From contig NC_086097.1 in assembly GCF_963921235.1 (NCBI RefSeq), positions 78,060,001 through 78,124,000 of the forward strand: a stretch of DNA of 64,000 bases. Reading direction: 5' to 3'. Shown in pieces: positions 4,205 to 53,702 of this stretch. Both the position numbers and the translations under genes were made by a program. The notes beneath the pieces are model-generated. The model searched no databases. It had not been told where the DNA came from and saw only the letters and a list, made by a program, of their open reading frames with translations. Positions within the stretch are counted from its first letter, which is position 1. Each line of letters begins with the position of its first letter. The stretch comes from Mobula hypostoma (lineage: Eukaryota).

Positions 4205-5341
4205 AACGTTAAGGCTACAGTCAGTCTGTGCGGGCAGAGATGTCTCTTGTCCAATATGCTGAGCACTGACGCTCCCCAAGGCAGTGTGCTCAGCCCGCTG
4301 TTGATGCATGACTGTGTCGTAGGATCAAGTACAAACTGTGTCAGGTTTGCGTATGACACAACCATAGTTTGGCCTTACCAAGAATGATGACGAGGCGGAG
4401 TATAGAGAGGAAATGGAGTGGCTGGTGAATTGGTGTGGGAAAAACAACCTAGGCCCAAATGTAGAGAAGACAAATGAAATTATTGTGGACTTCAGGAAGG
4501 TGCAGATGAGCCATCCCCCTCTGCAAATACATGGCTCCTCCATAGAAAGACTTAAGTGCACCAAGTTCCTGGGAGTTCACATCACAGATGACCTCACCTT
4601 GTCCCTTAATATCACCTCCCTTTGAAAAGTTCAAAGTAAAATATATTATCAGAGTACGTACATGTCACCACATACAACCCCGAGATCTTTCTCTATGGGC
4701 ACACGTAACAAATCTGTAGAACAGTAACTATAAAGTAGAAACATCAGGAATTGCAAACTGTAACCAAACTGTGCAAATACAGATATACAAGAAGGCACAG
4801 CAGTGCCTCCACTTCCTAAGAAGGTTGAGGCAAGCGAGACTTCCCCGCCACACCCCTCCACCCATCTTAACTGTGTTTTACAGGAGCACCATTGAGAACA
4901 ACCTGACGTTGCATCCCCATTGGGGACATTTATCAGGAGTGCTGCGTTACCAGGGCCCTTGGTATTATTAAGGATACCACCCATCCATCGTGCATCCTTT
5001 GACTTTTCTACCATCAAGCAGGAAACTATGACGCATAAAGACAAGAATGGTCAGGATAAGAAACAGTTTTATCCCCCAGGTCATTAGGCTTCTGAACTCC
5101 CCGCTGCATCGTATTCTCTTCTGTACCTAACAATATTTAATATTTGTGCACTTTTGTTTGTTTTTTATGTGTAATTCATCTGTAGATTTTATCCTTACCT
5201 TCATAAGTTATTGTGTGTTATGTGTGTTACTGTACTTTACACCCTGGTTTGGAGAAATGTTGTCTCATTTCTATATACATTATATGGTTATATATGTTAT
5301 ATACATGTACATAGTTAAATGACAATAAACTTGACTTGACT
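4205..5341 (+). mobile_element. Rex1/Babar-type LINE, 5'-truncated, nested in Charlie
   Basis: DAPQGSVLSPLL, RFAYDTTIV, KKAQQCLHFLRRLR C-terminal motif; AATAAA plus (CTTGA)n tail; interrupted at ~4623-4790 by another repeat 3' end. Confidence 0.85.
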
Positions 5342-16448: not shown

Positions 16449-18400
16449 TGTAACAAAGGGTGGTTACCAGGCTGGGTTGAACCGGGGTTGTTATCGTGAA
16501 ATTCAGTATCTTTAACCAGTGGACGACCAGAGGAGATGTAAACCATAGACCAGGACTCAAGTGCAGAGAAAACCAGAGATGAGGATGGAGTTGAAAGAAA
16601 AATCTGTACTTCAGGATTAGTTTGTGGGGACCTCAAGAATCGCCACACACAGACTGAAGAAGTTCAAGACTGAGTGAGCGAAGACATTCTCTGGAGAAAC
16701 AAGCAAGGCACAGATGCACTGGTATCTAAAACAAGATACAGGTGGAAATAATCAACTGGTAATCAGGGGAAGAGGAGCATTGGATTTTGGCAGATTCCTG
16801 AACCTCCTAGTGATCAAACCAAAGTATGACAGGACCACCTCGCTAGACCTAGCACCTGACAGCCCAGGGCAATCTGGGTGATGACACTGGAAGTGTCTGA
16901 TCCGGTCTGAGTCCAGGAGGTCATGGGAGAGAACCCACAACCTTTCCTCTGGGCTGTAACCATCCCAATGCACTAAATGCTGGAGCCAGCCATGAACCAG
17001 ACAGGAGTGCAGAAGCTGACAGATGGTGCATGACCGCTGAACATCACCAGGTCTTGGGATTGGTGCTAGCGGACTGCACTGAAGGGGTTTTAGATGGGAG
17101 ACATAGAAGGTGGAGAGATATGCATTGCATGAGGTAACTGGAGACAGTAAGTGACTGTGTTGATCTGACAAGGAACCTTGAACGGCCTAATGTAGCATGG
17201 CGCCTTTTTCCAAGACTCAACCCACATCAGGAGATCCTTTGTGAGAGCCAGACACTCTGACCAGGATGGAACAAAGGCCCCAGCTGCTGTCGACAGTTGT
17301 CATGTGGCTGTTTCTGCTGAGAGGCCTTCAGCGAGGCTGCCCAGCTTTCTTCTACTTCTGGTGGCAATGATGGGCCAGTTGTTTAGCAGCTGGGACCCCC
17401 ACCTCAGACACCTGCTTTGGAAACAGAGGGGATGGATAACCAAACTGACACTCAAAGGGAGATGTACCTGTGGAAGAGTAGTGCAGTGTTATGAACAAAC
17501 TTTGCCCAGAGCGGGTATCACTCCAAGAGGATGGGTTGCCCAACGCAAGACCCCTCAGGGACTTGTCCAGGTTCTAGTTAGTCTTCTCTGTCTGCCCATT
17601 GGACTGGGGGTGAAATCCATTGAGAGCCTGACTGTAGCTCTAATGAGCCAACAGAAGGCTTTCCAGAAGCAAGAGGTAATCTGAGAATCTCAGTCAGAAA
17701 CAACGTCTTGGGGAAAGCTGTGCTCTCTAAATACATGATGCAGCTAAAATTTGGCCCTCTCTGGAGCTGAGGGAAGCTAGAGTAGGGGTACAAATTGGAG
17801 GCCCTTGGAGAACCAGTCCATCACCATAATCATAGTATTTCCTTGTGATGGTGGCAGACCAATAATGAAGTCCATGGAGATATGGGACCAGGGACTGGAA
17901 GATATGGGCACTGGGTATACCAGTTCCTATTGGCATGATCTCGATTCCTTGTTCTCAACATTGATGTGACAGGCTGAAAGGTATAATTTAACATTCCCAT
18001 CCATGCCCAGCCTCCAGAACTGCCTGTTGATGAACTCCGCTGTTCAAGCAGTCACTAGATGTTCTGTGGTACATGACGCCTGCCCCCACTGTAACGCACC
18101 TAAATGGAGAGAGTGCAAAGACAACCATATGGGTTGTTCCCTGGGTCTGCTTCCTGCTGTTGTGCTCTCCCGAAATGGTCTCAACCTCCCATTGATCAGG
18201 TGCCACCAGTATGGACCTCGGGAGGATGCATTAAAGTGTTTAATGGATACATTAGACATTTACTTTAGGGACAATGGTGAAGAGAAACTTCATATACCTT
18301 TAGTGGTTTGATGATTGAGAAATAGAAAATGAACCCCTGATGGCCTTATTTTCAAAATTATAGTTTGTGAAGGCAGACTGACTTTGAAAATGGTGCAAGA
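16449..18400 (-). mobile_element. Gypsy (chromovirus-type) LTR retrotransposon remnant: integrase, chromodomain and 3' LTR
   Basis: Frameshifted integrase motifs (SSTGTSPFECQFGY; GFHPQSNGQTE-like segment); chromodomain-like LVHWDGYSPEERLWV; putative 3' LTR TGTCAT...GTTACA at 16831-16449. Confidence 0.8.
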
Positions 18401-19830: not shown

Positions 19831-20249
19831 GAAGGTTGAAAAGGTCAGTGTGTCAAGGCCCGAGGTGAGGGACAGGCCAGTTTAGATCGCTGCACAGAAT
19901 ACGGGACTCTCTTTGCAAACTTCAGTTCCGAATGCTACTTGCTTGCGGTTACTGCTGGCATAATGTAATTATTTTCTTTCTGCACAAAGGGTGTTCGATG
20001 GTCTTTTTCTTATATGAGTTATTTTGTGTTTCTTTGTTTTGTGGTTGCCTGTTAGGAGACGAATCTCAAGGTTGTATAATGTACACATACTAAATGTACT
20101 TGATAGATTTAGTATGATATGATAATAAAAGTACTTTGAACTTTGAATGGTTTTATTGAGTTTCTCTAATTTTCTCTTAACTCTCCCTTCTTTGAGTTGA
20201 GTACTACCCGTCATATAGAGAACAGAATTGAAGTAAATGGATCATTTTC

Positions 20250-31568: not shown

Positions 31569-34500
31569 ATTCTTCTTTAAAACTATTTATTTTTGTAATC
31601 TATAATAAATTTTGTGTCTGCACTGTACTGCTGCTGCAGACAACACACTGTACATCAGTAATAATAAACATGATTCTGATTTTGATCATCTCACTGCAGA
31701 ATGTGCCAGCCTGTGGGAGGCAAAATAAACTGTAAAATTTACGGTGTTTAATATTTATTTAGTGTTTGTGACTACTAAAAACAATACACTTATTTAAACA
31801 CATTAAAGTTACAAAAATAATGAAAATAACTAAATAAATAAAGTTCAGAAATGCTTTCCATTTACCTTCCATTACATTTTTACAGTCACAGGTGGAGTAA
31901 AGTGGAGAGGCCAGAAACAAAGTGTATCTAACCGCCCATTTCAGCTCATTAAAGAAAGTGAGTTGCATCATGACCATGGGTCCAACCACACACCAAATAT
32001 GGAGCATTCTGATATTTCTGCTATAGTGGGCATCCATATAAGTCTGGAGCACATGTAAGTCTCAAGCTAGCCCCTGTTCTTTTGGTCTGAGTAATCTGGC
32101 CTAATGCATTTGGACTGTAATCACTGTGAGCTGGAAATTGAGCTATCCCAGAAAACAGTTCCTCATGGGTCGGTGCCAATTTAGCACAGGGAAACCCAGG
32201 CAGTCGCAATCTTCCCTGCTTGAAGTGAAACTCTATATGTCCTTCCCACAGCCAGTTCTTGCCGCTGCAAATCACACAGCTGGCAGGTTACAAGAAGTGG
32301 GCGAGGATGGAATAATGGTAGAATGAGCATTGTAAGACATCCTGAAGAGAGGATCAAAAGGGAGAGGGAAACAGAGATGTGCTTAAACTTTAAAATATGT
32401 ACCACAAACTGGTTACAGCAACAGAAACTATAATTATTGGTTGATGAATTGGGTGGCAACTTTTTCAGGAATGGAGTTAGCAATGTTCTTTAGAGAAGTA
32501 ACCTTGCATTGTCTAGTCTAGGTTTTATTAACTTCAGGCCCAGTAATGTGCATTGTCTTCTAAAACAGCTGAGAGAAGCAGTGCCAATGAGAGACAGGCA
32601 ATAAATCCAAACTTTGTTAGTGGTGGTCAGAACAGATGTTTAAACCTCGGCTATTTGTGATCTTATTGAATGGCAAGAGGCCTAAGAAGCAAATTGGCCG
32701 ATAGACCATGTTCTTATTTTACTTCTTGCATTTGCACAAAACAATATTTTATAGAAATGTCTCAGATATTGAAAATTACCCTGAAGAATTAGAATTGAAG
32801 GTCAATCAGTATAATGGTCTGTAGAAATGCTACCCACCATTTCAGGGACTTCTGGAATGCTAGTATATAAGTCAATTATTATGAAAATTTGTGGAGAGTT
32901 CCTTTTTGTTGCTAGAAGATCCTATTAGCACTAGCAAAACAAAAATGATTAAATAATCTTCCATTGACTCAGTTGTCAGAGGCACTGCACTTATCTTTCA
33001 GCAGAAGTCTGCAGGTTTCCTGTGGACTAAAATTCTATCTACTTTCACTCATCCAATAGTTAAAAGACAGGGCAACCTCACTTAGATCCTTCAATCATTT
33101 GTTCCCTTTTTGACTTTACTTGACCTACACAAGATCCAATTAGGAAAAAACAAATATTTGCATGACTGTTCCTTAAATAAATACTGCTTCTGTGTATATG
33201 GTTCTTATCACAGTCAAGTGCAGGGTCAGCACTAAATTACCAAGAAATGTATTATTGCTAAGTATGAAGCAAATTCACTGGAAACATTGATACAAGAATG
33301 CCTGCATCTTGACATCGTGGGTCTGTACTATTGTAAGCTGCTTTCGTATTGGGAACTTTGAGAGCAGAATTCAGGCTGGTCAGTTCCACCTGTAGTTTCA
33401 ACCAAATTATATCAAATCTTCATTTCCAAACAATTTTGCACAATCAACCCCTGTCACCCTTCACTCCATCGGCCCTACCTAATAAAAATGCATCAGATCT
33501 ATGGACTCTACACAGAGAGTAAAGCAAGCCAAATATCCACTAGTCTTTAGCTGAATCTATATTGTTTGCTGAGGATAAGTCTGGATAGAAAATAACAGAT
33601 AGACATGGAAATTAAAAATTCTCCACGTGTCATTTTTTCCGGTCCCAGTGATGCCTGGGAAAGAAAGCATATTCAGGAGCCACCCCACCTTCTGTTCTAT
33701 CTCACTCTCAGTCTGTTACTCATGGTTGACAAATAACTTTTAAGTTAGTAGCAAGTAAATAGTGGGAACATTGGGTCATGTACAGAGGGGACGACAGGAT
33801 TAAGCATCTCATTTAAAAACTATTTATTAATCAAACACTGAATCACCACTTAAGAAAAGATTTCTACAGTTCAGTACATGCTTTATATAAAATCATTCCC
33901 CTAGGGTTGACAACAAATTGCAGACATCCTTTCAATGACTTCATTCAGCCTACACATGGCCAGTGAAGTATCAAACGATCTACTTGGTTCCCCTACAGGG
34001 AAATGCAATAATCAGCCGGTTAGCCGGAGCTGTTCCCTGGTAACATCCTGCTGCAATTCCCATGGCTCTCCGTGCTTCTTGGCCAGAGCACTAGTGGAGT
34101 CTATACAGCTGGAGGAACAAGGTCAACATTTTGTTCAGCTTACTACGTTGTTTAGTCTTTAATACATTCATTTCTACTGGAGTAGATTAATCGACTGGTA
34201 AAGAATGAAAATTTATTTACACTAACAAACAGCTTCATTCATCAAACTACTTTGTAGCATCAGTAAACAGTATAACAGGGTTGTTAGCTTTTGCTAAGCC
34301 CAAGATAAGATTATTTTTTGCGCCAAGCATTGACAATAAACCATCTCACGTAGCACATTTTGTTGTGACGATTGTCTAGTTTGAAAAGAATCATACAACT
34401 CAAGACAAGATATTTTGGACTTTTTTCAATTACATTGGGCTTATAAATATGGTCCTCATTGACCTCTTCAAGGAGGAGTATCAGGTAAAGAATTGATTCT

Positions 34501-34719
34501 GGGAAACAATCTCTACCTGCAATCCAGAGGGCAGTCTCTCCAGTAATTTTGAACTAAGCCATGGTGAAGGAGCTCTACCATCTCACTAGCAGGCCCATGA
34601 ACATCTTAAGGATGCACTTTAACTGCCTGCACAAATGCAGAAGCTCTTTAGCATCCTTCAGATCCATTCTCATGCCCAGCTTCGCCATTCAAACTGAGCT
34701 AAGCTTCCTTCTCTCATGT

Positions 34720-35833
34720 AATCAATAAGTGGTTGCTTCTCAATGAGAGGACAGCAGTGACACCCTCCCAGAAGGAAGCTGCCATGGGAACTCTTCAGAA
34801 TCAGCTTTATTATCAATGAGGGGTAGATAGTGCTGAGGAAGCATGCGATTGCAGCAGAACTTAGGCAAAAAAGGGCAGTGGAATACAGTGTTGGGAAATG
34901 CATGATAATACATTTTGGTAAAAGGAACAATAGTGCAGAGTATTTTCTAAATGGGGAGAAAATTCATACATCAGAGGTACAGAGGGACTTAGGAGTCCTC
35001 ATGCAAGACTCCTACCGAATGTTGATAGGACTAGATAGGGCGGATGTGGAGAGGATGTTTCCTATGGTGGAGTATCCAGAACTAGAGGGCACAGCCTCAA
35101 AATTAAGGAGCGACCTTTTAGAACAGAGGTAGGGAGGAATTCTTTTAGACAGACAGTATTGAATCTGTGGAATACTCTGCCACAGACTGTGATGGAGGTC
35201 AATTCCAAAAGTATACTTAAAGCAGAAGTTGATAGTTTCCTGATTGTTCAAGGCATCAAAGTTTATGGCAAGAAGGTAGGTGTACAGAGTTGAGTGGGAT
35301 TTGGGGTCAGCCATGATGGAATGGTGGAGTGGACTCGATGGGCTGAATGGCCCAATTCTTCTCCTATGTCTTCTTGTCTTAATACTTAGATGATGTGAAA
35401 ATTGTTTTGTGCAGTAGTACAGTGCAGACATATAACAATATGCAGCAAGTCCTGGTAACAACGCGGTACACAGCTCCATCGCTATCAAGCAACTCACTCA
35501 TGGGGTAGACCTGATGTTCTTAATAGCCAACAGTGTCTTATGATGGTGAGAAAGATATTAATGACAAACAATTTCACCTTTGGTTTTACCCGGAGAGGCC
35601 GCTGCAACCATGCTCGCAACCATCTTACCAGAACCTGCTCTCATCAGAAGACATTCTACCCCTTTCGTTCCTTTCTGTAGTTGGTCGTCCTGCTTTGCTT
35701 TAATTGGAATTACAGGAAGTGGTTGGACATGGCTGACAGTTTTGATTGAAGGAACGAAAGGGGTAGAATGGCAGCTTCCTTCTGGGAGGCTGTCATTGCT
35801 GTCTGGATCTTGAGAATTAACCACTTACTGATT
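34720..35833. repeat. Split long inverted repeat
   Basis: 34750-34785 complements 35768-35803 (34/36); 35652-35673 complements 35749-35770 (22/22); weaker extension 34720-34744 with 35810-35833. Confidence 0.9.
34816..35375 (+). mobile_element. CR1 3' fragment with internal deletion, nested in a Rex-type 3' tail
   Basis: YSVGKCMIIHFG, EVQRDLGVL, GLDRADVERMFP; CR1 3' UTR. Confidence 0.85.
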
Positions 35834-36284
35834 GAGATATTTTAAAATTTGTTCATAGGATCTGGCATTACTAACTATGCCAACATTTATTACCCATCTC
35901 TCATTAGCTCCCCATCTCCTCAGCTACCTTCGAGGGCAATATACATTACTGGGCCTACAATTACACACAACCCAGAGTGGATAATTATGCCAGATTTGCT
36001 TCCCCAATGAACATCTTTTTAAACAATGGAACATTTTAATGTCTGCCATTATTAAAAGAAAGAAACATTGGTAAATTCAATTACATTAGCAAATTGGTTT
36101 ATTAATGTCACATGTACAGAGGTATAGTGAAAACTTTGTTTTGCATGTTGTCCATACAGATAATTTCATTTACAACAGTTTATTGAGGTAGTACAAGGGA
36201 AACAATAATAGTGTGCAGAATGAAGTGTTATGGTTACATTGAAAGTGTAGTGCAAATAGTTAATCAGAGTCATTGCAAAGTACC

Positions 36285-38472: not shown

Positions 38473-38805
38473 CGAGGGGTGACTGATAAGTTCGTGGCCT
38501 AAGCTAGAAGGAGATGAGTTATACAGCTCTCGTTACATGCACGTGCAGTTCAACTCTTTGAGTGATTATGCAGAAAGTTTGAAGTTAATAACTCATCTCC
38601 TTCTACCTTAGGCCACAAACTTATCCATCACCCCTGCTGTGGACCACTTTCTGGACAGGTCCAAGATGCCGACTTCTACAAGGAAGGGATCTGCCTGCTC
38701 CATGACCGCTGGACTAAGTGTGTAAATGTAGGAAAAATAAATGTGCCAGGTTTTCTACAATTGACTCCTTATACCTTAGGCTGCAAACTTATCAATCACC
38801 CCTTG
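38473..38805. mobile_element. Mariner-type MITE
   Basis: TA|CGAGGGGTGACTGATAAGTTCGTGGCCTAAG is inverted to CTTAGGCTGCAAACTTATCAATCACCCCTTG; third TIR copy at ~38593-38635. Confidence 0.8.
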
Positions 38806-40430: not shown

Positions 40431-41470
40431 ATCACATGCAAATTGCTGGAGTAACTCAGCAGGCCAGGCAACATCTATGGAAAAGAGTAAACAGTTGATG
40501 TTTTGGGTTGAGACCTTCATCAAGACTGGTAAAAAATATAAGAAGTTAGAGCAAGAAGGTAGGGGGCAGAGGTGGAAGAAGTACAAGATGATAGGTGATA
40601 GGTGAAACTGGGAGAAGGGGAAGGGTGAAGTAAAGATTTAGGAAGTTGATTGGTGAAAGAGATAAAGGGCTGGAGAGGGGGAATCTGATAGGAAAGGGTA
40701 GAAGACCATGGAAGAAAAGGATTGGTGGGGAGCACCAGAGCAAGGTGATGGGGAGGTAAGGACATAAGGTGAGAGAGGGAAATGGGAAAGGGGGAACAGT
40801 GAGGGGTGGGGGGCAATTACCGGACGTTTGAGAAGTCGATGTTCATGCCATCAGGTTGGAGGCTACCCAGATGGAATATAAGGTATTGCTCCTCCAACCT
40901 GAGTGTGGTCTCATCATGGCAGCAGAAGAGGCCATGGACTGACATGTCAGAATGAGAAGTAGAATTGAAATGGGTGGGCACTCGGAGAACCCACTTTTCT
41001 GGCAGATGGAGCATAGGTGCTTGGCGAAGTCGTCTCTCAACCTACTTCAGGCCTCACCGATATACAGGAGGCCACTCAGGGAGCACCGGATATAGCAGAT
41101 GACCCCACCAGACACCAGAGGCGAAGTGTCGCCTCACCTGGATGGACTGTTTGGGGTCCTGAATGGTAGTGAGGGAGGAGGTGTAGGAGTAGGTATGGTA
41201 CTTGTTCTGTTTGCAAGGATAAGTGCCAGGAGGGTGATCAATTGGGAGGGACGAATGCACGAGGGAGTAGCGTAGGGAGCAATCCCCGTGGACAGCAGAA
41301 AGTTGGGGGGAGGGAAAGATGTGTTTGGTGGTGGGATCCCGTTGGAGGTGGCTGATGTTTTGGAGAATTAAGTGCTGGACGCGAAGACTAGTGGGGTGGT
41401 AGGTGAGGACAAAAATATCCTATCCCTTTTGAGGTATCAGTGGGGAGGGACGAATGGACATAGGAGTCAT
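40430..41470 (-). mobile_element. Penelope-like element 3' part (GIY-YIG endonuclease, 3' UTR, decayed hammerhead)
   Basis: GTYPCKQNK...QVRRHF and HFNSTSHS...LRLEEQYLIFHLGSLQPDGMNIDFSN; minus strand reads CAGTC-TTGATGA-AGGTCTCAACCC-AAAAC-ATC-AACTG at ~40528-40492. Confidence 0.9.
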
Positions 41471-41514
41471 GTATCAATGGGGAAACACCTGGAGAGAGTC
41501 TTCGCTTGCAAGGA

Positions 41515-41922
41515 TCTCAGGTTGGAGGAGCAACATCTTATATTCTGTATGGGTAGCCTCCATCCTGATGACATGAACACCGATTTCTCAAACCTGGTAA
41601 TTGCCTTCCTGCTGTGTTCACCAGCAACTTTGATGTGTGTTAATTGCCTCACACCTTTCACCATTCCCCCATTCCCATTTCCCTCTGACACCTTATCTCC
41701 TTACATGCCCATCACCTCCCTCTGCTGCTCCTCCCCCTTCCCTTTTTCCATGAGCTTCTACCCTCTCCGATCAGATTCCTCCTTCTCTGGCCCTTTATCT
41801 CTTCCACCAATCAATTCCCAGATCTTTACTTCACCCCTCCCGCCTCCCAGTTTCACCTATCACCTACCACTTTATCCTTCTTCCTCCTCTCCCTCCCATT
41901 CTTGCTCTAAGTTCTCATCCTC
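41515..41922 (+). mobile_element. Inverted partial Penelope copy (pseudo-LTR-like)
   Basis: LRLEEQHLIFCMGSLHPDDMNTDFSN plus pyrimidine-rich UTR, inverted relative to ~40540-40905. Confidence 0.85.
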
Positions 41923-50497: not shown

Positions 50498-52052
50498 CAA
50501 GTTTCCCCCGCCATCCGAAGGTAGAGCGTTCCTATTAAACGGTTCGTAAGCCGAAATGTCGTAAAGTGAAGAAGCAATTAACGTTTACTTATATGGGAAA
50601 ATTTTGTGAGCGTTCACAGACCCAAAAATAACCTACCAAATCATGCCAAATAACACATAAAACCTAAAATAACAGTAACATATAGTAAAAGCAGGAATGA
50701 TATGATAAATACACAGCCTATATAAAGTAGAAATACTTTTCCACAATCATTACTGAACTGTTCTCCGTAGCGAAAATCTCACGCAAGTGCCTTCGGCAAA
50801 AAATCTCACACAAGCGCTGTTGGCAAGCACACTCTCTCCTGTAACCTTTAAGCTATGAAGCTGCCAAATCATACCAAATAACACGTAAAAATACACTGCC
50901 AATATAAAGTAGAAATAACGCATGTACAGTGTAGTATCACTTACGGGAATCGGGAAGACAGCGCAGAGCACACTGATGATGGTGTGTTAGACTGAGTCGT
51001 TGCAGGTTGTGTGGTACAGTGGTCCCCACCGTCCAGGCCACTGAGCGATACATTGCTGCGAAGAACGCAGGGGTCCAGCGGTAGCCGGGAGGTACACAGC
51101 ACATCTTTAAGAAAAAAGCCGAAACAAACATGCTAATTAATTAGGTGCCACCCGTAATTGTCGGCCCAAATCAGTGCCGATTTCCTTATTGTGTCGTCTC
51201 TGATCTGGGCCAACAATTAGGTGTCGGCGGCACCTAATTAATTAGCATGTTTATTTCGGCTTTTTTCTTAAAGATGTGCTGTGTGCCTCCTGGCTGCCTT
51301 TGCATTCTCTGCGAATCGGTATCTCTCCATGGCCTGGGGGTTGGGGTGGTGGGACACTGGGGTGTCATCTCGTCATCTGTTTCCATTACAGCAGGCAGCT
51401 CATCTTCTTCTATCTCTGCCCGCCTCGATGTCGAAGGTCAAGGTTCGTCGTCTGCTGTGGCTGATGTGGAAGGCTTGCTTGACTGCTGAGCCTCGTGCAT
51501 TTTTCTATCACACAGTTCTTTAATAAGAACTCAAACCATCCTGCAAATATCCCCTAAACTGACGTACCCTTTCAAAATTAAAGTCGTACTTTATCATTAC
51601 TCATTCGGTTTCGATTGTTATCCTTTTTTCTTCCAGTTGCATCAGCTCTTCATCTGTCAGTTCTTGGTGATGGGATGTCAAAACCTCTTCAACATCATGT
51701 TCGTCAGCTTCCACAAGCCAAACTCACGCTGTCCTTACTTCATTCACCACGATCAAAACGCTTAATTATATCTAGTTTTACCATAAGTGTAACACCCTTA
51801 CGAGCTCTTTCAGGCTTTTCCGATACTATAGAACTCATCTTGCAAACGGCTGCTTGCAGGCACATGTTAAAGCAATGCTGTTCCGAATCTGGGGGAGAGC
51901 AGCCTCTCAGGGCGCGCTGCCTTTTATCGCGTGCTGAGTTTTCTTTCGTAACAGTGAAAACACCTTCTGAAAGCGAAAACAGAGTACTAATGTAGGTCTT
52001 TCGTAACAGTGAGGTTTCATAAAGCGAACATTCAAAAAGCGGGGGACACCTG
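50498..52052 (-). mobile_element. Tigger/pogo DNA transposon, internally deleted
   Basis: TA TSD; TIRs CAAGTTTCCCCCGC / GCGGGGGACACCTG; CENP-B-like N-terminus RARKGVTLMVKLDIIKRFDRGE. Confidence 0.9.
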
Positions 52053-53702
52053 TAATGTCTTTCTTGCGCATTTGTCAAAATCTAATTCCAGGTTTTGCCA
52101 AGCACTGCTTTTTCCATTCATAAGATAGATTCAAAGGGGTAGAACTTGTCGCACACATTAAGCATGTGCTGTTTCCTTTACTTCCATAATTCATATCCAT
52201 GATTTTCGATGGAATCCAATATCAAATATCTAAAATAGATTCTATTGTGTATATACTACCGAATTCTGTATTCAGCACCTGCAATTGACAACTAATGGTA
52301 GCTGAGGTTATGTTTCTTCTCTTACCATTTATCCTTAACATTGTGACCTACAGTACCTTTAAATCTCAACACAGTATATTTCTGCTCCTCCAGAGATATT
52401 TTACCTGACATAACTTATATTGTAACCTCCCAAATCTTCTGTTTATTATAGTTGTCTCAGTTTATCAGTGCTAGCTAACGATATTTGCCAGCCTCCAATC
52501 CTCCATCTGCAGACTGAGCTTCTTTTATGAATTTTCATGTGTATATCCATGTAGACATTTTCAGTATAAAGAGGTAGTTTTAACTACTACCCAGCTTGTA
52601 CTTGTTTTCTTGGCTTTTAACAAACTAAATAAAGGATCAACCCTTTATTATCTTAAAGAACCTGAAGACTTTTTGAGGTTATTAACTTTGTCCATCCCTA
52701 CAGCAAACTGAAGAGCTGAAATTCCAAAATGATTAATGTTTTGGCCTTATATTTCTTATCATCTCATCCAAACTAATACAACTTCCAAGAATCATTTCGT
52801 CTTCATTGCAGTCCTCAAACCCAAACTGCTGCCACTGAATCAACCAAAACATGAACACTTCCTTATAAACACCCATCGACCCACCATGCTCTTGTTTTGT
52901 TGGCTTCATTGCTTCACAAAACTCAAAATCATGCAAATTACAATCTCTTAGTCAATGTTTAAACTAACATTGTTTTTATTTTACTGATTGATTTAGATCA
53001 GCTTATTGCTTTCATTACAGCTTGGAAAGTTAAGTGACTATTTTATCATTAAAATTATAGAATGAGAGTTTCCACAGTTAGAATATGCTCTCTTAACAAT
53101 GAAATTCTATGTCCCTGAAGAAAAACTCTGTGCCTAATTACTTATGGCCTTCCTGAAAACTTCACAACATTTACAAAATTTTCAACAATTCATATTTCAT
53201 TCTTGATTTTTTAAAATAATGTATAATACATTCAAGTTCAAATGGAATAAAATAAATCAAGTCTGTTTCCACCAAATAAGAATACAAAAGTACAGTATAT
53301 TAAAGCAAGCTGTAAGGTTGACAAGCAATTTCATGCTTATCTACTTTTGTATATTTATTTCCTTTAACTTTAGATGAAAACAATAGGTTAGTGCGATATG
53401 ATCAGAATAATAAAAAGTTGTCCAAGTTTAAATATTAACTTGCAGTCATGGTTTCATATTTCTAGAGGTAATACATTACCCCTATTCAAGTTCGTTTAGA
53501 TGTTAAAAGCATGACTATTCATGAGCTACCAATACATAGCATTATGGGAAAAATATGCTATTCAGACTAGTAGCTTATAGAGTCTTGGAGTTGTACAGTG
53601 TAGAAATAGGGTTTTCAGGCCACCACATCTACTGCATACCAACCACAGGACCTCTTTATACTGATCCCAAAAGCCTGCATTAGTTTCATATCACTCTGTG
53701 AC

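What the first reader, a model, noticed from the sequence alone, without database searches (positions are those of the whole stretch)
34720..35833. Split long inverted repeat: one arm pairs with two segments ~870 bp apart
Seen: the right arm 35749-35833 is complementary to 35652-35673 (22/22, 75-nt loop) and, contiguously, to 34750-34785 (34/36), with a weaker outer extension; the two left pieces overlap by CAT. The spacer holds decayed CR1/Rex fragments, yet the inner pairing is nearly perfect. This suggests a selected long-range RNA duplex (ADAR substrate, splicing control) or arm homogenisation. On the minus strand the arm lies in an open frame with possible splice sites (~35810-35579), and A35796 faces a C. 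Editing there would recode AAU (Asn) to Ser. A disrupted palindromic MITE is the alternative.
Basis: partly seen in the sequence, partly recalled or inferred. Interest (0 to 1): 0.7.

Follow-up and report, generated by a model that had tools for sequence, protein, structure and literature searches.

The report
Old DNA fold-back split by retroposon
A single-copy, backwards-duplicated stretch in what is probably a ray genome, likely left by a DNA-copying slip and likely split later by jumping-gene insertions, changes about as fast as its neighbours and lacks its inner stem and open frame in two relatives, so it looks like an ordinary genomic scar rather than an RNA-editing switch.

Summary
The split inverted repeat is real and far beyond chance. 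Contigs of three relatives show both arms single-copy at 80% likeness, so no MITE family is seen. The spacer is multi-copy, present in all three relatives, and bounded by a 9/10 direct repeat: likely one retroposon with a nested CR1 piece. Leaving it out gives a compact 275-nt palindrome with a 20-nt bulge.

In the two relatives about 9-10% diverged, the outer arms change at flank rate (6/132 vs 18/297, p 0.65). None of 8 changed pairs changes on both sides, the 22-bp stem is absent (z about 0), and the proposed exon loses 7 nt and its frame. The close relative keeps the stem.

Best reading: an old template-switch inverted duplication, split by a retroposon and drifting neutrally. Whether the perfect inner stem was newly corrected in this lineage or destroyed in the other is unresolved. 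Asn-to-Ser recoding is not supported. One residue stays odd: a 41-bp perfect run across the junction.

The parts
34720..34785 (.). Left outer arm (L1); pairs with 35768-35833, 55/66
   Evidence: single-contig depth in organisms B, C, D
34702..34712 (.). 11-nt inverted copy of the L1 core (34770-34780), inside a segment missing in organism D; possible further templated insertion
   Evidence: table 8 (D has 3 letters in place of 34679-34713)
34791..34800 (+). Left copy of a 10-nt direct repeat, candidate target-site duplication
   Evidence: 9/10 match to 35640-35649; 2.6% of random 41-mers match the left-edge window as well
34795..34819 (-). 3' end of a LINE-type tail (Rex1/RTE-like; family name recalled)
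   Evidence: aligns with tail copies at 53700, 54104, 31690
34820..35385 (+). Decayed CR1 3' pieces nested in the tail
   Evidence: nhmmer E 1e-29 to 27842-27485 and four more window copies; depth in the thousands or more
35390..35435 (-). Continuation of the same LINE tail beyond the CR1 piece
35436..35639 (.). Moderately multi-copy segment of unknown family; inferred rest of the same retroposon
   Evidence: bin depth 36-204 vs 3 single-copy in B, 382-2333 vs 19 in D; no other copy in the window
35640..35649 (+). Right copy of the candidate target-site duplication
   Evidence: 7/10 in C and D
35652..35673 (.). Left inner arm (L2), 22/22 with 35749-35770 in the window; 3 substitutions and 1 deletion in C and D
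35674..35748 (.). 75-nt loop; faint internal symmetry, not significant (P 0.08)
35749..35770 (.). Right inner arm; in D 6 nt shorter with 2 substitutions; C has the same 2 substitutions and lacks 6 nt in 35711-35767
   Evidence: tables 2-4
35768..35833 (.). Right outer arm; 5 shared substitutions in C and D
35578..35808 (-).
35841..36015 (-). Decayed repeat abutting the right arm (HE1/HER1-like tail; name recalled)
   Evidence: 72% to 32483-32606

Best explanation
This is a single-copy inverted duplication, likely made by a DNA-polymerase template switch and likely split afterwards by a retroposon, whose outer arms change at the rate of their flanks and which probably has no RNA function. Shown: single-copy arms, a multi-copy spacer already present in all three relatives, no compensated pair, and the inner stem and open frame missing in two relatives. 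Inferred history: (1) a switch copied about 105 nt of upstream DNA backwards and skipped 20 nt between two CAT triplets, giving the 85-nt right arm 75 nt away; (2) a LINE-derived retroposon inserted into the 17-nt skipped segment of the left arm with a 10-nt duplication, and a CR1 piece later inserted into it; (3) the arms drifted; (4) the 22-bp inner stem was either re-perfected by a further short template switch in the A/B lineage or destroyed by a mutation cluster in the C/D lineage. These two directions are about even and unresolved.
For: Arms at exactly single-contig depth in B, C, D (e.g. bin 35768-35824: 3, 4.7, 19.1) beside a multi-copy spacer. Shared differences: 6/132 in the outer arms vs 18/297 in flank plus loop, Fisher p 0.65. 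Of 8 changed pairs in D, 0 changed on both sides; non-Watson-Crick pairs 11, at least 12 and at least 13 of 66 in window, C, D. D-like inner hairpin z -0.75/-0.17 vs -5.8/-7.3, longest stem 5 vs 22. The inner difference cluster (2 substitutions, 6 nt of gaps in 19 nt, perfect reverse-complement template 75 nt away) fits the four-point template-switch profile (PMC5453318 section 6; PMC7954356 passages: median copied piece 12 nt, maximum 128, template within 100 nt, 65% lengthen the sequence). Direct repeat 9/10 at the spacer ends; the empty site folds as one palindrome. Overall arm mismatch (11/85 in the window, 13/66 in D) is roughly what arms as old as the CR1 piece would show.
Against: The window keeps a 41-bp perfect run across the junction: P 0.004 for 11 independent mismatches, 0.06 for 7 events, though the locus was picked for this. 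The 36-bp core (2 mismatches) is better than an assumed 16-22% pairwise decay predicts (P 0.06-0.008). L1 alone has only 1 shared change in 66 (p 0.22), and 8 changes in 132 nt vs 11.4 expected (P 0.20) leaves room for mild constraint. The D-like right inner arm is no more like L2 than chance (P 0.6; 0.3 against the window's L2), so a common origin of inner and outer stems is inferred from geometry only. The direct repeat has a 2.6% chance rate and overlaps the tail repeat. Only 40 of 227 substitution rows and 12 of 24 indel rows were shown.
Confidence: 0.7

Rival explanations
1. A selected long-range RNA duplex in an intron or non-coding transcript: the right arm pairs with both left pieces as a three-way junction that serves as an ADAR substrate or masks a splice site. 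It would be kept or improved in the A/B lineage and weakened in C/D.
For: Strong predicted duplex in all states (-88 to -101 kcal/mol); 41-bp perfect run; no difference listed at 35796 or 34757 in the shown rows; L1 has 1 shared change in 66; 4 of 5 transition mismatches are G-U on the plus strand.
Against: No excess conservation (p 0.65) and 0 of 8 changed pairs compensated. The pair-breaking transitions between lineages give G-U twice on each strand, so no strand preference. Inner stem absent in C and D. No host exon recognised in the window.
Confidence: 0.1
2. Remnant of an old, low-copy palindromic DNA transposon (MITE) whose arms stayed alike by hairpin correction and which was split by the retroposon.
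For: The empty site is a 275-nt palindrome; the window holds other palindromic repeats with 18-31-bp perfect stems (51080-51298, 38475-38635).
Against: No extra contig laid on the right arm or inner stem at 80% likeness in three species, whereas the old repeat next to it (72% to its window copy) does raise depth; no other copy in the window; arms 83-94% alike would be odd if all other copies were under 80%.
Confidence: 0.12
3. A minus-strand cassette exon (35808-35578) whose downstream complementary sequence guides ADAR to recode AAU (Asn) to AGU (Ser) at 35796.
For: 231-nt open frame between AG and GT, same phase at both ends; A-C mismatch at the codon's middle base.
Against: Net loss of 7 nt in C and D, with stops in all three frames of the D-like state; acceptor near the window median; 35578-35640 lies in a multi-copy repeat. 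No credible homologue: none of 54 candidates, no Atlas hit, no Pfam, and one hit among 1.84 billion proteins that is a tandem-repeat translation with single matches of at most 24 bits.
Confidence: 0.03
4. A young, template-switch-born microRNA-like hairpin formed by the 22-bp stem.
For: Template switches are reported to create miRNA stems in one step (PMC10710096, abstract and section 6); stem present in A/B and absent in C/D.
Against: The stem is 22 bp perfect with a 75-nt loop, against the preferred 35-bp stem; no Rfam match in the window.
Confidence: 0.03

Closest known systems
Short-range template-switch mutations, four-point model (Loytynoja and Goldman 2017, PMC5453318, passages and section 6 read; Walker et al. 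2021, PMC7954356, passages read)
   Same: A cluster of substitutions and small indels between relatives that is fully explained by a perfect reverse-complement template within 100 nt; net length gain; short matching letters at the switch points.
   Different: Direction not established here; the full arm would need a further jump over 20 nt (multi-switch cases are noted in PMC10710096 section 6); the template arm was later split by a retroposon.
Template switching that creates or repairs hairpins (Monttinen and Loytynoja 2022, PMC8794818, abstract and opening seen; Monttinen et al. 2023, PMC10710096, abstract and section 6 read)
   Same: A stem that is perfect in one lineage and unstructured in relatives.
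   Different: No sign of an RNA gene; loop of 75 nt and stem of 22 bp are unlike a pre-miRNA.
Pairs of conserved complementary regions (Kalmykova et al. 2021, PMC8052449, passages read; authorship recalled) and exon-intron editing duplexes of the GRIA2 type (recalled)
   Same: Long near-perfect complementarity about 1 kb apart, predicted energy far below -30 kcal/mol, an A-C mismatch.
   Different: Arms not more conserved than flanks, no compensatory change, no conserved exon, no host gene identified.
Palindromic MITEs / fold-back DNA transposon remnants (recalled)
   Same: About 275-nt palindrome once the insert is left out.
   Different: Single copy at 80% likeness in three species; no outer target-site duplication evident.

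Membership tests
Template-switch mutation (four-point model) | Cluster of substitutions and indels between close relatives | tested here: met
   2 substitutions and 6 nt of gaps in 35749-35767 against D; C has the same substitutions and the same 6-nt deficit in the bin
Template-switch mutation (four-point model) | Perfect reverse-complement template within about 100 nt | tested here: met
   22/22, 75 nt away
Template-switch mutation (four-point model) | Direction placed on a tree: ancestor lacks the copy | tested here: inconclusive
   No outgroup. Internal duplicates mark 5 of 7 shared differences as C/D-derived (3 of 5 without the two edge positions), so loss in C/D is possible
MITE / palindromic DNA transposon | Many dispersed copies of the arms | tested here: not met
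   single-contig depth in B, C, D at 80% likeness; none in the window; copies under 80% not tested
MITE / palindromic DNA transposon | Terminal inverted repeats with an outer target-site duplication | tested here: inconclusive
   inspected by eye only: the right end abuts another repeat, the left end an indel-prone segment
ADAR recoding site with editing-complementary sequence | Target A in a duplex, often opposite C | tested here: met
   (predicted, minus strand)
ADAR recoding site with editing-complementary sequence | Conserved coding exon in frame | tested here: not met
   231 vs 224 nt, stops in all frames in the D-like state; no credible homologue
ADAR recoding site with editing-complementary sequence | A-to-G in RNA against matched DNA | not testable with these tools
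   no RNA holder listed; only contigs available
Conserved complementary regions (PCCR) | Both regions conserved above background | tested here: not met
   6/132 vs 18/297, p 0.65; few taxa, low power
Conserved complementary regions (PCCR) | Compensatory substitutions | tested here: not met
   0 of 8 changed pairs; some rows hidden
pre-miRNA | About 35-bp stem with apical loop | tested here: not met
   22-bp perfect stem, 75-nt loop; no Rfam match
pre-miRNA | Phased small-RNA reads | not testable with these tools
   no small-RNA data
LINE-derived retroposon insertion (spacer) | Multi-copy body with a LINE-type 3' tail | tested here: met
   that tail and 35436-35639 are one element is inferred
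LINE-derived retroposon insertion (spacer) | Target-site duplication | tested here: inconclusive
   9/10 direct repeat, 2.6% by chance, overlaps the tail repeat; no empty allele seen in B, C, D

The most novel reading that the evidence does not exclude
In this lineage a template-switch-made arm pairs with two distant left pieces as one 41-bp perfect, 85-bp total helix that loops out an 870-nt retroposon stack, and selection has kept or perfected it as an ADAR-edited or splice-masking duplex around a young, lineage-specific exon.
Probability: 0.07. Interest if true: 0.55.

Novelty: new member of a known kind. Interest (0 to 1): 0.15.

Why it matters
As most likely read, it matters little: one more template-switch scar. 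It is a tidy case showing that patchy near-perfect pairing around decayed transposons can arise without selection, and that two relatives suffice to expose a false editing-duplex candidate. If the novel case held, it would show a replication error building a working long-range RNA duplex across a transposon insertion within one ray lineage.

Tried and rejected
No whole genome was held, so copy number came from contigs of three relatives, not from organism A's own DNA runs. No RNA holder was listed for 35330-35900; the one presumed RNA run laid had no contig on 34400-34798 or 35654-35824. Neither is evidence on expression.

Host gene hunt: 280 of 469 stop-to-stop frames of 50 aa or more went to Pfam (most of those left out lie in evident transposon stretches). 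The only hit above cut-off was ALKBH8_N at 4720-4968, which I read as a LINE piece (recalled). A sub-threshold EST1 hit at 19972-20241 had no PDB support. A splice-site scan gave no recognisable exon.

Peptide searches gave nothing credible; one search covered only proteins of 141-2000 aa. Rfam: 0 matches. A 21-nt arm pattern in metagenome contigs: 0. No tandem repeat in the feature. Earlier-finding look-ups near, by relatives, by sequence and by words were blank.

Loop symmetry not significant. A literature search for shark or cartilaginous-fish editing duplexes listed 6 papers (listing only); none concerns such a locus by title.

Full report
Observation. 35652-35673 pairs with 35749-35770 at 22/22 over a 75-nt loop, and 34720-34785 pairs with 35768-35833 at 55/66. 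The inner 36 bp have 2 mismatches and the outer 30 have 9, six of them consecutive at 34744-34749. Chance does not give this: BLAST E 3.9e-12, best perfect stem 15 bp in 200 shuffles, fold z -5.45 and -6.82. The window is otherwise a field of LINE and DNA-transposon remnants with no recognisable host exon. Other notes on this genome call it a ray (unchecked).

Anatomy of the spacer. A LINE-type tail starts at 34795 on the minus strand, is interrupted by CR1 pieces (about 34820-35385), and resumes at about 35390-35435; both halves align with consecutive parts of three other tail copies in the window (the Rex1/RTE label is recalled). Contigs show that 35426 to about 35640 is also multi-copy, with single-copy depth again at 35644. 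A 10-nt direct repeat (34791-34800 and 35640-35649, 9/10) bounds the stack; 2.6% of random 41-mers match as well, and it overlaps the tail repeat, so it is suggestive only. Read as a target-site duplication, it leaves 17 nt between L1 and L2. The empty site is then a 275-nt palindrome whose left arm carries a 20-nt bulge between two CAT triplets. That the whole spacer is one element plus a nested CR1 is inference.

Relatives. One search listed organism B (57% of words) and organisms C and D (5% and 3%). laid one run of each and one presumed RNA run at 80% likeness. B differs from the window by about 1.2-1.3%, D by about 8.6%, C by about 10%. The table showed 40 of 227 substitution rows and 12 of 24 indel rows. 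As far as I can infer the ranking, rows shared by C and D in single-copy stretches are complete, D-only rows stop at 34754, and C-only and B-only rows are hidden, so counts for single species are lower bounds. The right arm and inner stem sit at exactly single-contig depth in all three species; the bin holding the end of L1 is slightly raised where the tail begins. Contigs of B, C and D run from L1 into the spacer and from the spacer into L2, so the insertion predates their split; no listed piece spans the whole stretch.

Outer duplex. Shared differences are 1/66 in L1 and 5/66 in the right outer arm, against 13/222 in the left flank and 5/75 in the loop (6/132 vs 18/297, p 0.65). Of 8 changed pairs in D none changed on both sides: 4 are broken in D, 2 are broken in the window, and 2 were already mismatched. 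Predicted duplex energy stays at -88 to -101 kcal/mol, as any 80%-alike 66-mer pair would. Power is low: 8 changes vs 11.4 expected, P 0.20.

Inner stem. C and D share three C-to-T differences and a 1-nt deletion in L2, and two substitutions in the right inner arm. D lacks 6 nt there in three gaps; C lacks the same first 2 nt and 6 nt in the bin overall. The D-like region has no significant fold (z -0.75, -0.17), a longest stem of 5, and halves no more alike than chance. B has the window's letters at every listed position and no gap there. This is the pattern of a short template switch (PMC5453318, passages and section 6; PMC7954356, passages; PMC10710096, abstract and section 6; PMC8794818, abstract and opening). 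Direction is open: the duplicated arms and direct repeat mark 5 of 7 shared differences as arising on the C/D side (3 of 5 without edge positions), so decay in C/D is about as plausible as correction in A/B.

The exon. The frame 35808-35578 is open in the window, with phase-matched AG and GT, and A35796 is the middle base of AAT opposite a C. Against it: the acceptor has no pyrimidine tract and scores near the median on my recalled-frequency matrix; its last 60 or so bases lie in a repeat; and C and D lose 7 nt, giving 224 nt with stops in all frames in the D-like state. The peptide has no credible relative. The one hit among 1.84 billion proteins is a tandem-repeat translation summing matches of at most 24 bits.

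Age argument. The best long contig on the CR1 piece differs by about 11% (X12 record 13). With an assumed pairwise decay of 16-22%, the window's 11/85 has P 0.27-0.025, the core's 2/36 has P 0.06-0.008, and D's 13/66 fits well. The 41-bp perfect run has P 0.004 for 11 independent mismatches and 0.06 for 7 events. Selection of this locus for its perfection, or one correction event, accounts for that without function, but this residue is why I leave 10% for a selected duplex.

Mechanism and verdict. Most likely a polymerase template switch copied about 105 nt backwards with a 20-nt slip at CAT, a retroposon and then a CR1 piece landed in the left arm's bulge, and the arms have drifted since, with one further clustered event at the inner stem. 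It works like published template-switch mutations; membership rests on two met features and one inconclusive. It fails the tested features of a MITE family, a conserved complementary pair (PMC8052449, passages), a recoding exon and a pre-miRNA. If the locus is transcribed, incidental editing of the duplex would be expected (established ADAR behaviour) and would not show function. Literature searches were made; no supplements were read. Interest 0.15.

Noticed in passing
window 34679-34713: Indel-prone segment just left of L1 (3 letters instead of 35 in D; about 19 missing nearby in C). It holds an 11-nt inverted copy of the L1 core, possibly another templated insertion.
   Followed up: partly
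window 35644-35687: Eight shared differences from C and D in 44 nt (18% against about 6% in flanks): a local mutation cluster of unknown direction.
   Followed up: partly
window 35436-35639: Moderately repeated segment with no Pfam or Rfam match and no second copy in the window; family not identified.
   Followed up: partly
window 51080-51298: Palindrome (82% self-complementary, 31- and 24-bp perfect stems) near a transposase-like frame at 51740-52081 (Tigger-like by recall; no Pfam hit).
   Followed up: no
window 38475-38803: Palindromic repeat (71% self-complementary, 18-bp perfect stem) with a third copy of its end at 38765-38803; mariner-type MITE by recall.
   Followed up: no
window 35681: A strong plus-strand acceptor (99th percentile on my matrix) whose pyrimidine tract is the L2 arm; no matching downstream donor within 35900, and its G is A in C and D (35680).
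   Followed up: partly
window 19972-20241: Minus-strand frame with a sub-threshold Pfam EST1 hit (24 vs 25 bits); no PDB support, probably chance.
   Followed up: yes
window 16755-17299: Weak chromo and Tf2 SH3 hits on the minus strand: decayed Gypsy-type retrotransposon piece.
   Followed up: no
window 40538-41918: Two inverted copies of a 400-nt repeat (75% alike) about 600 nt apart: a longer potential duplex than the finding itself.
   Followed up: no
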